NCBI GenBank assembly: GCA_964016885.1
Contig: OZ024751.1
Location: 37,634,001-37,698,000, forward strand
From: Eledone cirrhosa
Lineage: Eukaryota
Length of the DNA stretch: 64,000 nucleotides
Direction of reading: 5' to 3'
Shown here piece by piece: positions 46,249 through 50,511 of the stretch. A program made the position numbers and the translations under genes. The notes below the pieces were generated by a model. The model did no database searches. It was not told where the DNA came from and was given only the letters and a program-made list of their open reading frames with translations. Each line of letters begins with the position of its first letter. Positions within the stretch are counted from its first letter, which is position 1.

Positions 46249-46332
46249 ATGGAAAGTTATATTTAAATTGTTGGGTTACAACTAGTAAATATTTATAACT
46301 GATATAAAAGCACTCGACAAGTATTTGGAGTA
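46249..46332 (+). repeat. Direct repeat ('tail', equal to the 5' leader), copy 1
   Basis: Identical by eye to 50088-50171 (atggaaagttat...gtatttggagta). Confidence 0.95.
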
Positions 46333-46374
46333 TATTTACGATATTAAATAAATGGAAACTATATTTATAAAACC

Positions 46375-46452
46375 ATATTTATTTCATTATATATATTTCA
46401 GGGATATCATATTAACAATATGCTATGCCTTCCTCAGACAAAATACAATATA
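46375..46452 (-). ncRNA. Type I hammerhead ribozyme in the 3' pseudo-LTR (element sense strand)
   Basis: TATTGTATTTTGT-CTGAGGA-AGG-C-ATAGCATATT-GTT-AATATGATAT-C-CCT-GAAA-TATATA-TA^ATGAAATAAATA. CUGANGA/GAAA core, three stems, palindromic stem III and AUA cleavage triplet. Confidence 0.85.
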
Positions 46453-47826
46453 AACAGTTTTATAGATAAATAGATTTGACATACCGTACAACATCGACTT
46501 GTATTTGAAAAGTTGAATTGGCAGTGAAAAAATTGTACACAGAGAGAAAGAAAGAGAGAAAAAAGGAAAGAAAGACAGAAAACGAAGAAAAAGAAGAAGA
46601 AAAAAAAGAAAAAAAAAAGAAAAAGAAGAAATGCATGGAACAAAATAGAGAGATGGAAAGATAGATAAAGAGAAGAACTTCATGTAAAGAAACAGAGAGA
46701 TATATATATATATAGAGAGAGAGAGAGGAAATAGAGATAGATATATATATATAGAAAACTAGGTAGTGGGACGTCCGTTGAGTAAACGTATCAATGATAC
46801 ATTTATTTATTTATTTATTTATTTAGCTCTAGTATTAATGTAAGGGAGATATATGTGGTTAGGAGAGAAACCAGCTGTTATATAGAGAGAAAAATTAAAA
46901 ATAACCAGACATAGGCGAGGCATAAAAACCCTATGTTTTAATGTAGAGGTATTAGTATGTATAAAAACCAGCCACTATATTGTAAATATCAGTATTCCTG
47001 AATGAGACATGTATCCATAATGTGTGAAAAGTAATGATCTTATGTTTAGTTTAAAAAAAAAAAAAAAAAATTCATATGTTTATGTGATAACTACAAACAT
47101 CTATGTGAATTTACATGATCAACTCTGCAAACCCTAGGTACACGGAAAACATTCTCATTGTGCTATAAAAATTTAAGTATACATATATGTGTATATATAT
47201 ACACACATATATATAGAGAGTCAATATTACTACTATTCCTGTCTTTACTCTACAAGATTATCTATCAAGCAGAAATAGAGAGCAGATTTCAATATACTAA
47301 CAAAAATATATATCAGAAACAAAACCAAAAAATAACAATAATAATAATAATAATAATAAATAAATAATAATAAAATAGAAAACTAAAAAATATTACGAAA
47401 GAATATTACATATTAAAAATATTACATATTAAAAATAAAAATATTAGAAAATACTACAATAATAAAAATAAACCACAAAGATCAACCCTTCAAAATTAAT
47501 TGACAATATATTGTCAAGTTCATTATAAGCATCAGAGTCGAAAAACAGATAAAGCTAAAAATTATTTATCAAATCGCATCTAGCAAAAATCATTTCAAAA
47601 AGTTTAGGATGCCCATTTGGTCTACATGTGTTCTTATATTTAATATAGAAGTTTATCTAGTGTAACGTTTATTCGAAATATTTGGAGCATCAACTTTTAG
47701 GGTAGCTTAATTTTTCATGAAGAATGTTTAAATAAAAATAAAAATAAAAAATAAAAAGAATAAAAAGAAGAAATCGAAAGATTTATCGGCTAGTTTCCCA
47801 TATAATTATAAATCAAACTAAATATA

Positions 47827-50040
47827 CTACATTTTAAATTTAAATTTATATTTAAACGTTGAGTTTAATCTATGTTTGCAGCAACTGAATAAATTTGTCC
47901 GTAGATTAAGGGAATTTTTAGATTTTAGTATAAAGAATATCTCCTCTGCGCAGAGGTCACATGTCTCAGAGGATGAATTAAAAGGAATCCCTCTTGAGAC
48001 TATATTCCAAGCCGTCGAATATCTAACGTTATCTAGCTTAAGTTGCCAGAGTACGCCTGATAGTGCCGTTGAAGATTTTTTGCTTGGATCTGTGAAAGAA
48101 TTCTTGTGGTTATTGTAGCGAAGTTTAAATTCCGTCGATGTGGAACCGACGTAGTTAAAAGAATTAGAGTCAGTTTTAACATTACAATTGTATACTATAT
48201 TTTTAACTAAGCAGTTGTTATTTAACGGACATTTAGATCTATCTCTACAGTTACATTTGTTAACTTGTATATTATTTATGCTATTATCACTAGGTTTTAA
48301 GTTCCTATTATTTATTCTATTAATATTTTGTGCTAAATTTTTGGTGGATGAGTAGGTTAATTTTATAGTATGTCTATTGAAAATTGAGTGATACCTATGT
48401 GTTCTAGGGAAGCGATTATCAAGAGCTTTAAAAAATAGTTTAGCGATGTGGGTTTTAATGTTTAGTGAGAAAGGGGGGGCAAACCAAATTATGTTCCTAG
48501 TTCTATTTCTTTTTTGGCCTTTGGAATTATTGTAATGCTTTCTATTATAGTTGTTAAGGTTGTTGCCGTAATTAAAATAGTTGTTATTTTGTTTAGTTTG
48601 TCTATCATTATCTATGTACATAATCTTATCAGTATATCCTGCTCTAGCTAATGCTTCATTGTAGTATTGGGCTTTTTCGTCGAAAATCTTTCTATTCGAC
48701 GAGATCCTAGAGATACGTTTTTGAACAGAGTTTACTATAGTGTTTTTGACAGATCTGGGGTGGTTAGAGTTAAAGTTGACATAGTTTAAGTTTTCATTCA
48801 ACTTGTGAAAAGGATAGTGAAGACATGTGTTGAGATTTAATGTTATATCTAGGAAATTGACTATTCTATGGTTGTTCTCAATTTCTATTTTAAGATTAAA
48901 GTAATTAAAAAATTGTGTAATTTGTTTACATTTTCTATTTAGTTCAGAGTTATTATTATCAATAAGTAAAAGCATGTCATCTCTATATAAACCTCCAGTA
49001 GTACCATGTATTTTCCTATGTAGCGAATTGATTAAAAATAAGCCCACAAGGTCAGTTACCTGAGCTGAGTCGGATGATCCCATAGTAATGTCAAAATTGC
49101 TATCTCTATCTGCTCTGGTCCATAGTTGGTCATTAAATTCTATCAAAGTTTTCCTAGCCGATAATATAATATGCATTTCATTGCTAGTTAGGTCAGTATG
49201 TTTGAATGCGTAATTTAGTGCCTTATTTAGTAGATTAGGGGTAATAGAAGAATAATAGTTAGCAATATCAAGTTGAATAAACTTATTATTATTGTTATAT
49301 TTAATTTGCTTAAACCACTCAACAACCTCTCCAGTTCCCTTCCACAAGCTCAGGTTAGATAAACAATCCAAGTTCTTAATTTGCTGTATCACCCTGTCAA
49401 GAATGTTTTTGCTTATTTTGCCCAGGTCCGATTTTGATGGTGCGATCAATCTAACTGGCAAGTCATTTTCAAAATTCCTCTTGTGATCTTTCATATTGAT
49501 CTTCGGTTTCCTGGGCACGAAAGGTTGTGTTCTGTTCTCAATTTCCAACTCGTGCATTATACAAGATGCTTCGACATTCATTTTCTCAAGCTCGGCCTTA
49601 TCTGCTACCTTGTACTTTTTCCTCAGTTCCTTCAGTATGAGGCCATTATACATGTCTTTCTGCACTCCATAGAGGTTGTTGGTCTTGTCAGATTTCACCA
49701 AGATCTTCTCAGTTTTCTCTAAGCTCTCAATATTATCCTTAATGCCTTTCAGATATTCCTGGCCTTTGAAGTTTCTCTTGAATTTGACCCCTTGTATGAT
49801 AGAAATTATATCGTTTTCAAAGTCAGATAAAAGTTTGTTAGGGGGTGGATTTCTTTTAGATTTGAAAATTTTGTTTAAGTCCGAGACATTTTCATTTATA
49901 TTAGATTTATCAAAGTGGAATGCTCGCCACCTGATTCTCCTTATAAAAGAGTCAGATTTATCTATTAATTGTTTTATAAAGTCTTTGTTTCTAGGTAGAG
50001 ATATGTCTTTTAAAGAGGAAGTAATCTTAAAGAATTCCAT
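47827..50040 (-). CDS. Penelope-like reverse transcriptase / GIY-YIG endonuclease, 737 aa
   Basis: N-terminal SLKDISLP and IRRIRWRA, then KSDKT. RT motifs QLDIANYYSSI, TMGSSDSAQVTDL, LYRDD, VNFLDITL. Thumb YVNFNSNHP, then IIWFAPPFS. Linker CNCRDRSKCPLNNNC. GIY-YIG NIVY...YVGST..FKLRYNNH. C-terminal CDLCAEE...LN...CKH. No stops. Confidence 0.96.
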   Translation of the reverse strand: MEFFKITSSLKDISLPRNKDFIKQLIDKSDSFIRRIRWRAFHFDKSNINENVSDLNKIFKSKRNPPPNKLLSDFENDIISIIQGVKFKRNFKGQEYLKGIKDNIESLEKTEKILVKSDKTNNLYGVQKDMYNGLILKELRKKYKVADKAELEKMNVEASCIMHELEIENRTQPFVPRKPKINMKDHKRNFENDLPVRLIAPSKSDLGKISKNILDRVIQQIKNLDCLSNLSLWKGTGEVVEWFKQIKYNNNNKFIQLDIANYYSSITPNLLNKALNYAFKHTDLTSNEMHIILSARKTLIEFNDQLWTRADRDSNFDITMGSSDSAQVTDLVGLFLINSLHRKIHGTTGGLYRDDMLLLIDNNNSELNRKCKQITQFFNYFNLKIEIENNHRIVNFLDITLNLNTCLHYPFHKLNENLNYVNFNSNHPRSVKNTIVNSVQKRISRISSNRKIFDEKAQYYNEALARAGYTDKIMYIDNDRQTKQNNNYFNYGNNLNNYNRKHYNNSKGQKRNRTRNIIWFAPPFSLNIKTHIAKLFFKALDNRFPRTHRYHSIFNRHTIKLTYSSTKNLAQNINRINNRNLKPSDNSINNIQVNKCNCRDRSKCPLNNNCLVKNIVYNCNVKTDSNSFNYVGSTSTEFKLRYNNHKNSFTDPSKKSSTALSGVLWQLKLDNVRYSTAWNIVSRGIPFNSSSETCDLCAEEIFFILKSKNSLNLRTNLFSCCKHRLNSTFKYKFKFKM

Positions 50041-50087
50041 TTTTCCAGTTATAATATAAAGCGCTCAACAGTATTGGAGCAAGATAC

Positions 50088-50171
50088 ATGGAAAGTTATA
50101 TTTAAATTGTTGGGTTACAACTAGTAAATATTTATAACTGATATAAAAGCACTCGACAAGTATTTGGAGTA
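50088..50171 (+). repeat. Direct repeat copy 2 (5' leader of the ORF)
   Basis: Matches 46249-46332 and lies 48-131 bp upstream of the ATG on the minus strand. Confidence 0.95.
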
Positions 50172-50511
50172 AATTCACATAGATGTTTGTAGTTATCACA
50201 TAAACATATGAAATTTTTTTTTTTCTTTTTTTCTTTTCTTATTTTTTTTCTTCTTTTTCTTCGTTTTCTGTCTTTCTTTCCTTTTTTTTCTCTCTTTCTT
50301 TCTCTCTGTGTACAATTTTTTCACTGCCAATTCAACTTTTCAAATACAAGTCGATGTTGTACGGTATGTCAAATCTATTTATCTATAAAACTGTTTATAT
50401 TGTATTTTGTCTGAGGAAGGCATAGCATATTGTTAATATGATATCCCTGAAATATATATAATGAAATAAATATGGTTTTATAAATATAGTTTCCATTTAT
50501 TTAATATCGTA
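50169..50511 (+). repeat. Inverted, internally deleted pseudo-LTR
   Basis: 50169-50212 is the reverse complement of 47071-47114, and ~50221-50511 is the reverse complement of 46337-~46625. The two parts are joined through T-runs. Confidence 0.95.
50397..50474 (+). ncRNA. Type I hammerhead ribozyme in the inverted pseudo-LTR
   Basis: CTGAGGA at 50411-50417 and GAAA at 50449-50452, with predicted cleavage after 50460. Same sequence as 46375-46452. Confidence 0.85.

What the first reader, a model, noticed from the sequence alone, without database searches (positions are those of the whole stretch)
46249..50511. Intact, apparently young (TA)n-targeting Penelope-like element with hammerhead ribozymes on both strands
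Seen: an uninterrupted 737-aa RT-linker-GIY-YIG ORF, a ~1.5 kb 3' region, repeats identical by eye (suggesting recent insertion), (TA)n at both junctions, and one hammerhead on each strand pointing outward. Known: PLEs form partial-tandem or inverted pseudo-LTRs and carry minimal type I hammerheads with palindromic stem III. Inference: the CxCx5Cx5C linker, the absence of a CCHH motif within the GIY-YIG and the CxxC...CxH tail fit my recollection of the little-studied Hydra clade rather than Penelope/Poseidon or Neptune. This may be an undescribed, potentially active family.
Basis: partly seen in the sequence, partly recalled or inferred. Interest (0 to 1): 0.85.

Follow-up and report, generated by a model that had tools for sequence, protein, structure and literature searches.

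The report
Hydra-clade Penelope retroelement with twin hairpins
This is a recent, unbroken copy of a known kind of jumping gene (Hydra-clade Penelope element) in a probably octopus genome, and its two ends each lie just before one of two small conserved RNA hairpins that likely tell the element's enzyme where to start copying RNA into DNA.

Summary
Observation confirmed: a 737-aa open frame (RT, zinc linker, GIY-YIG), (TA)n at both ends, near-identical internal repeats. The two hammerheads are one sequence, the second lying in an inverted 3' fragment. All Hydra-clade protein motifs tested are met; no tree with reference clades could be built. An octopus Hydra family and young octopus Penelope copies are published, so the element is a new family of a known clade. 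Activity of this copy is unshown.

The useful addition: both termini lie 5-9 nt before a bulged hairpin, present twice 90 nt apart, and the stretch between is an 88-nt 'tail'. In metagenome relatives, 30 of 35 families carry the hairpin, 20 carry two, and its inner pair covaries (43 of 45). 12 of 14 mapped 3' ends fall 0-12 nt before one. The hairpins likely position the two RT start sites known from a lizard element in vitro. I did not find this motif in the papers searched. The scan noted twin hairpins and two-armed insertions before, on other DNA.

The parts
46231..46250 (.). (TA)n target, left; shared with the 3' end of a neighbouring hammerhead fragment
46249..46336 (-). 88-nt 'tail' between the two 3' termini, T1 (46337-46340) and T2 (46249-46251)
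   Evidence: 5348 reads of run X15 show (TA)n at T1 (table 7)
46310..46331 (-). bulged hairpin 1 (4-bp outer stem, inner stem-loop, 2-nt pyrimidine bulge), 5-8 nt 3' of T1
46380..46445 (-). type I hammerhead, core at 46437, palindromic stem III, predicted cut after 46388
   Evidence: stems I and III read by eye
46446..47826 (-). long, simple-repeat-rich 3' UTR, about 1390 nt from ORF to hammerhead against 89-548 in 41 relatives; family-wide, not captured flank
47827..50040 (-). 737-aa ORF: RT (DKT 118-120, D258, YRDD 352-355), Asn-rich spacer (about 478-512), CxCx5Cx5C linker (596-610), GIY-YIG (Y617, Y630-G632, R641, E700, N712), CxxC 694/697, CxH 721/723
50061..50080 (-). bulged hairpin 2 in the 47-nt 5' UTR, 7-9 nt 3' of the T2 position; A-U closing pair of hairpin 1 replaced by G-C
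50088..50171 (-). upstream sense copy of the tail (the only sense pseudo-LTR), with hairpin 1 at 50170-50149; begins 4 nt from the T1 position
50169..50511 (+). inverted 5'-truncated copy: 47114-47071, then a jump between U-rich tracts that skips about 430 nt, then 46632-46337; ends at T1; 3-nt microhomology (50169-50171) to the sense copy
50403..50468 (+). second copy of the same hammerhead, core at 50411
50510..50533 (.). (TA)n target, right

Best explanation
This is one recent insertion of a Hydra-clade Penelope-like retrotransposon whose two ends each lie 5-9 nt before a conserved bulged hairpin, and these hairpins likely dock the element's protein so that reverse transcription would start at one of two fixed sites. 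Steps: (1, inferred from the lizard element PAc) a tandem donor copy is transcribed through two 3' ends. (2, inferred) The protein binds a hairpin; its GIY-YIG domain nicks a (TA)n repeat on both strands. (3, junction positions shown, initiation inferred) RT starts just 5' of hairpin 1 (T1, no tail) or hairpin 2 (T2, with tail), so the tail length equals the hairpin spacing. (4, inferred from this copy's geometry) The left target end was primed at T2 and copied one whole unit plus the tail, stopping at the upstream T1. The right target end was primed at that T1, copied about 300 nt, jumped between two U-rich tracts and stopped; the two cDNAs joined through 3 nt of microhomology. (5, shown) Both arms read through the predicted hammerhead cut site, so the template was uncut or re-joined there.
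For: Clade motifs. Hairpin: 30 of 35 distinct metagenome families have one in the 170 nt before the ORF and 20 of 35 have two; shuffles give two in 0.005 families per round and the antisense strand in 0 of 35. The first inner pair is Watson-Crick in 43 of 45 motifs (29 C-G, 14 U-A); 96 of 135 inner positions pair, against 47 +/- 5.5 with partners shuffled. 12 of 14 mapped 3' junctions lie 0-12 nt before a hairpin, 11 of them 0-4 nt, at both hairpins (rough p 3e-7 by family). The same motif is visible at the termini of published Hydra consensi. A second copy in the window (63045-63515) also ends at T2 on one side and T1 on the other. For PAc, RT starts at two internal sites that bound the tail, both strands are cut and extended, the minimal template extends 3' of the start sites, and hammerhead cutting is not needed (PMC11167929).
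Against: No binding or priming was tested. Single hairpins are weak folds (z -1.0 and -1.6; +0.3 in the 63-kb copy). 5 of 35 families show no motif and 2 of 14 junctions have no pattern match. Only 4 of the 14 junction flanks are clean (TA)n. Mapped ends include TA microhomology, so the offsets are uncertain by several nt. The shuffle control does not remove relatedness, and the pattern was loosened. The same-RNA step rests on one copy: L023 begins and ends at T1 with no inverted arm, and several other 5' ends lie elsewhere. PAc belongs to another clade and starts inside an AC-rich stem-loop, not before this motif.
Confidence: 0.6

Rival explanations
1. The hairpins position RT as above, but the two arms come from two separate RNA molecules or from a hammerhead-cut, re-ligated circle. 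The 5' end at T1 then marks a unit-length round, a transcription start or an RT road-block, not a second primer on the same RNA.
For: L023 is a unit-length copy from T1 to T1 between (TA)n arrays without an inverted arm. Hydra-1_Obim is noted as having no pLTR. The inverted arm lacks about 430 nt and differs in the U-rich tract, as a second template could.
Against: The sense copy is longer than one unit (tail twice). Its 5' end and the inverted 3' end abut to within 4 nt. No reads began or ended at the hammerhead site for PAc.
Confidence: 0.2
2. The motif works as DNA: the endonuclease recognises the inverted repeat in the element's own DNA or cDNA and trims the intermediate at T1 or T2.
For: Craig et al. 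ascribe the tail to endonuclease-mediated resolution. The Drosophila Penelope tail was needed for endonuclease recognition, as cited in PMC11167929. T1 and T2 lie in short TA-like stretches.
Against: The inner part varies from 4 to 25 nt while keeping its pairs and a one-sided 2-nt bulge (UU in 35 of 50), which fits a folded single strand, not duplex recognition. In PAc the tail matches RT start sites.
Confidence: 0.12
3. The hairpins have another job (transcription start, translation or export of the RNA), and ends fall beside them only because TA-like stretches there anneal to the nicked (TA)n target.
For: Hairpin 2 lies 9-50 nt before the start codon in most families. Both termini show 2-4 nt of TA microhomology.
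Against: The UTRs are AT-rich throughout, yet ends cluster within 0-4 nt of a hairpin in 11 of 14 cases, also where the flank is not (TA)n. PAc initiates without homology to the cut DNA.
Confidence: 0.06
4. The identical arms come from an assembly error or from gene conversion, so neither the geometry nor the young age is real.
For: No contig or read spans the locus, and no genome is held.
Against: The arms differ in the U-rich tract and by a deletion. Both termini recur in other copies. The layout is the published one. 2098 of 7628 contigs laid from run X1 are at least 99% alike.
Confidence: 0.02

Closest known systems
Hydra clade of C-terminal EN+ Penelope-like elements (Craig et al. 2021, PMC8557442)
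   Same: Domain order, RW[K/R], DKT, CxCx5C linker, no CCHH, CxxC and CxH around the EN E and N, canonical hammerhead near the 3' end, (TA)n targets, inverted 5'-truncated copy.
   Different: 3.9 kb against 'generally <3 kb', because of a 1.58-kb 3' region. The tail is 88 nt. The twin hairpin is not mentioned in the main text (0 hits for hairpin, stem-loop, GAGCAC).
Hydra-1_Obim, Octopus bimaculoides (same paper, files S1, S2, S4, S7)
   Same: Cephalopod Hydra family, (TA)n preference, similar RT motifs.
   Different: 709 aa, 2507 bp, a different hammerhead sequence. Roughly 45% identity in two RT blocks counted by eye, so a separate family.
PAc, Poseidon element of Anolis carolinensis (Frangieh et al. 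2024, PMC11167929)
   Same: Two fixed 3' termini bounding an optional tail, AT-rich targets, uncut hammerhead in the copied template.
   Different: Other clade. [quoted passage not shown] Here the tail is non-coding and each start has its own downstream hairpin.
Adineta vaga Penelope insertions (Arkhipova et al. 2013, PMC3846280)
   Same: Direct plus inverted pLTR, one-sided tail, microhomology junctions, Asn-rich linker inserts, long 3' spacers in Pen1.
   Different: Pen1 spacers are captured host DNA unique to each copy; here read depth shows the 3' region is family-wide. That paper proposes self-priming on an antisense template for the inversions.

Membership tests
Hydra clade PLE | single ORF, telomerase-like RT with C-terminal GIY-YIG | tested here: met
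   (GIY-YIG hits weak but top-ranked)
Hydra clade PLE | RWK motif near the N terminus | tested here: met
   RWR at 37-39; R at the third place in 24 of 85 relatives, K in 54
Hydra clade PLE | DKG changed to DKT | tested here: met
   DKT 118-120, no DKG
Hydra clade PLE | CxCX5C linker before the endonuclease | tested here: met
   C596, C598, C604, plus C610 invariant in 85 relatives
Hydra clade PLE | no CCHH motif inside the endonuclease | tested here: met
   only C619 and H645 in residues 612-693
Hydra clade PLE | [quoted passage not shown] | tested here: met
   C694/C697, E700, N712, C721/H723
Hydra clade PLE | no N-terminal CxC, no insertion-in-fingers domain | tested here: met
   0 Cys in residues 1-110; D258-G321 is 63 aa, the median of the 86 aligned proteins; no Naiad sequence aligned as a control
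Hydra clade PLE | canonical hammerhead near the 3' end | tested here: met
   core and stems at minus 46437; no Rfam hit; cutting untested
Hydra clade PLE | insertion into (TA)n | tested here: met
   both junctions; 5348 reads of X15 and contigs of X4 and X6; 63-kb copy
Hydra clade PLE | groups with Hydra in an RT tree that holds the other PLE clades | not testable with these tools
   no reference sequences of the named clades were available to the tree tools; a tree of 43 homologues puts it with Argonauta proteins in a subclade of support 1.0
Hydra clade PLE | length generally under 3 kb (typical, not diagnostic) | tested here: not met
   3923 nt from 50171 to 46249, due to the 3' UTR
Penelope/Poseidon, Neptune, Nematis | CCHH in the endonuclease and DKG motif | tested here: not met
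Naiad/Chlamys | N-terminal GIY-YIG, CxC motif and IFD | tested here: not met
Hydra-1_Obim family | same sequence family as the published consensus | tested here: not met
   different hammerhead and protein by eye; 0 of 4 short Obim motifs found in the window protein
a family already in Dfam, Repbase or the O. vulgaris library | matching annotated consensus | not testable with these tools
   those libraries are not held; supplement of PMC13282606 not read

The most novel reading that the evidence does not exclude
Hydra-clade elements carry a clade-wide, tandemly duplicated RNA docking signal (GCUC, variable stem-loop, 2-nt pyrimidine bulge, GAGC-AC) that fixes both RT start sites. The Penelope 'tail' is then simply the distance between two protein-binding hairpins, and two protein copies on one tandem RNA prime both ends of a cut (TA)n repeat to make the two-armed insertions. 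A 20-nt hairpin would define where a telomerase-related RT starts internally.
Probability: 0.45. Interest if true: 0.72.

Novelty: new member of a known kind. Interest (0 to 1): 0.5.

Why it matters
How Penelope-like elements choose where to start reverse transcription, and why they leave a one-sided tail and inverted arms, is open; the one in vitro study found two internal start sites but no defined signal. A 20-nt covarying hairpin before each terminus makes this testable with a few RNA mutants. This intact 737-aa protein with its native 5' UTR is a ready substrate for the first biochemistry on the Hydra clade. It also gives a short marker for finding Hydra ends and the non-coding repeats they may mobilise. 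The element alone is ordinary: one more young family in a repeat-rich genome.

Tried and rejected
No whole genome is held, so copy number, flank census and polymorphism could not be done properly. Pfam on the full protein: 0 families. Profile searches of solved structures: nothing significant. Rfam: 0 at gathering score; the 10 E-value matches are TA-repeat microRNA models and other weak hits. No RNA holder was listed among 17 runs. Scan look-up by sequence: nothing. The wider structural search of the nuclease domain was not run. Rejected: two different ribozymes (same sequence); 5' end set by hammerhead cutting (it starts about 55 nt past the cut site); 3' UTR as copy-specific captured DNA (depth 7,600-29,000 in the unmasked bins against 9.4 in the flank; one repeat-masked bin reads 0); RNA-editing scars (arms identical outside the U-rich tract, private changes of mixed type); the motif as a general PLE feature in this exact form (11 of 15 supplement hits lie in Naiad or Chlamys consensi, none in a terminal hairpin as displayed; 4 lie at Hydra termini). 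5'-end mapping in 46 loci was mostly uninformative: contig starts or pLTRs longer than the window examined.
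Full report
Observation. The minus strand carries an unbroken ORF from 50040 to 47827, 737 aa from the first ATG. A model built on 86 aligned proteins has mean pLDDT 91, and its best structural match is telomerase RT (3du5, E 4e-9). The C-terminal 149 residues match GIY-YIG weakly by profile (E 0.067; 7 of 38 aligned domains) and by fold (top four hits T4 EndoII and I-TevI, E 0.24-0.36). (TA)n lies at 46231-46250 and 50510-50533. 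Three internal repeats are identical over 84, 228 and 44 nt; the A/U-rich tract between the last two has 3 mismatches and 5 gap columns. The hammerhead cores at minus 46437 and plus 50411 are one sequence in two orientations. Rfam found none, so the call rests on the core pattern and on stems read by eye.

Anatomy, read in the element's sense. An inverted 5'-truncated copy (plus 50169-50511) is followed by an 84-nt sense repeat (50171-50088), a 47-nt 5' UTR, the ORF and a 1578-nt 3' region. There are two 3' termini. T1 (46337-46340) ends the inverted copy; T2 (46249-46251) ends the main copy. The 88 nt between them are the 'tail' described for Penelope-like elements, there as 30-40 bp (PMC8557442). 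The sense copy starts 4 nt from the T1 position and shares 3 nt with the inverted copy. An older fold-back copy at 63045-63515, 88% alike, also has T2 at one end and T1 at the other.

Clade. Craig et al. define Hydra by RWK, DKT, a CxCX5C linker, loss of CCHH, CxxC and CxH near the end, a hammerhead and (TA)n targets. Each is met. The protein search gave 205 relatives among 7993 candidates scored, best 39-42% identical; the only ones named to a species among the 120 listed are three Argonauta hians proteins. A tree of the window protein and 42 of those 120 puts it in a subclade with them (support 1.0); it has no reference clades. An octopod host is therefore inferred, not shown. The published Hydra-1_Obim differs in length, hammerhead and protein (about 45% identity in two RT blocks, counted by eye).

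Family and age. Reads were laid on 45800-50490. In run X1, which may be the source sample, the left flank lies on one contig of depth 9.4 with no difference, ORF bins sum to 7,500-76,000 and the 3'-terminal bin to about 1,000,000. The tool warns that this is no copy number; it shows a large family with many short 3' stubs. 2098 of 7628 contigs are at least 99% alike and 519 are under 90%. In X15, 5348 reads show (TA)n at T1; X4 shows it at T1 and X6 at T2. Runs labelled as two other organisms hold pieces 98-99% alike. Zero substitutions in 350 nt of internal repeats give under about 1.2 million years with the rate quoted for O. bimaculoides, if that rate applies and there was no conversion. 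Against activity of this copy: of the 40 variant places shown (626 in all), four ORF places differ from at least 94% of depth in both X1 and X15, two of them changing residues. One is S14, where 69 of 85 relatives have proline. There is no sense hammerhead upstream, and read-through would pair the inverted arm with the 3' UTR. Expression and polymorphism are untested.

The twin hairpin. The sequence 3' of T1 resembles the sequence 3' of T2. Each holds a 4-bp stem, an inner stem-loop, a 2-nt pyrimidine bulge and a purine-C; an A-U pair in the first is G-C in the second. I saw the same pattern at the ends of published Hydra consensi and wrote it down before fetching 78 metagenome loci, the best 80 of 460 confirmed stretches. 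44 loci had an ORF start with at least 110 nt upstream, giving 35 distinct families. 30 of 35 have the motif in the last 170 nt and 20 have two; shuffles give two in 0.005 families per round; the antisense strand gives one motif in 4 and two in 0. Spacing is 43-79 nt, median 64, against 90 here. Of 50 motifs, 45 had an inner part of 7 nt or more: the first inner pair is Watson-Crick in 43 (29 C-G, 14 U-A), and 96 of 135 positions pair against 47 +/- 5.5 in 2000 partner shuffles. That control ignores relatedness. Of 32 loci with a hammerhead and at least 60 nt after it, 8 read on into a tandem copy, 3 end with the contig, 7 had no reference and 14 gave a junction. 12 of the 14 lie 0-12 nt before a hairpin, 4 at the first and 8 at the second (three of these assigned by position); L008 and L031 have no pattern match (with a looser pattern). 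Only 4 of the 14 flanks are clean (TA)n; 5 of the 7 unreferenced loci also end in (TA)n.

Mechanism. For the lizard element PAc, purified protein cuts AT-rich DNA on both strands, extends both, starts at two internal RNA sites that bound the tail, needs RNA 3' of those sites and does not need hammerhead cutting (PMC11167929). I infer that in Hydra elements each hairpin docks the protein and sets one start site. For this copy the simplest history is priming at T2 and at the upstream T1 of one tandem RNA, like the twin priming of L1 (recalled, no call), with a template jump between U-rich tracts in the short arm. L023, a T1-to-T1 copy without an inverted arm, shows that a 5' end at T1 does not require this, so a circle or two RNAs remain possible. 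My odds: Hydra membership 0.95, hairpins set the starts about 0.7, same-RNA priming about 0.5.

What is known. The clade, an octopus member, (TA)n targeting, inverted arms, hammerheads on both strands and young octopus Penelope copies are in print. I did not find the hairpin pair in five library searches or in text searches of two papers. Papers seen: PMC8557442, abstract, passages and supplement parts 1, 2, 7, 52, 53 of 59 plus one search, figures S7-S8 not seen; PMC11167929, parts 1-2 of 4, supplement not seen; PMC3846280, PMC7761336, PMC7229834 and PMC13282606, passages; PMC4209133, part 1 of 4; bioRxiv 2026.07.22.740005, part 1 of 5 and passages, supplement not seen. Lunse et al. 2017 on PLE hammerheads was not read. 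Unseen figures and supplements could already show the motif. Earlier scan notes report a twin hairpin in a sea-urchin Hydra stub and two-armed insertions in this genome. I saw them after my own tests; they are not independent proof.

Verdict. A real, young, unbroken copy of a new family in a known clade. The element is ordinary; the hairpin pair is the part worth testing. Interest 0.5.

Noticed in passing
window 46074-46230, plus strand: A 157-nt fragment of a related family (about 70% alike) with its own hammerhead core at 46130, between two (TA)n arrays, ending at the T1-equivalent position and facing this element tail to tail: two insertions into one microsatellite.
   Followed up: partly
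window 63045-63515: Fold-back stub of a sister subfamily (88% alike), hammerheads at minus 63234 and plus 63418, T2 at the left end and T1 at the right, a perfect palindrome and a short duplication at the centre.
   Followed up: partly
window 18803-18965, minus strand: Another short hammerhead-bearing insert (core 18898, long perfect stem II, palindromic stem III) between two (TA)n arrays; family not determined.
   Followed up: no
window 50527-50670: A small fold-back right of the element: 72-nt arms, 94% complementary, around a (TA)n centre.
   Followed up: no
window about 34400-37700: A 3-kb degenerate (TA)n block with 6% GC at its core.
   Followed up: no
ORF residues about 478-512 (window about 48505-48609): Asn-rich, low-confidence insert between RT thumb and zinc linker, like the Asn-rich inserts of Adineta Penelope elements.
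   Followed up: no
L020, L027, L065 upstream of the ORF: 5' junctions fall 6-11 nt before the upstream hammerhead core, at the start of stem I, not at the cut site; L020 has an inverted copy joined there.
   Followed up: no
L006, about 60-80 nt upstream of the ORF: A (TA)n run sits between the two hairpins at the T2 position inside a pseudo-LTR.
   Followed up: no
runs X4 and X6: Runs labelled as two other organisms hold pieces 98-99% identical to this copy's ORF: shared by close species, recent transfer or mixed samples.
   Followed up: no
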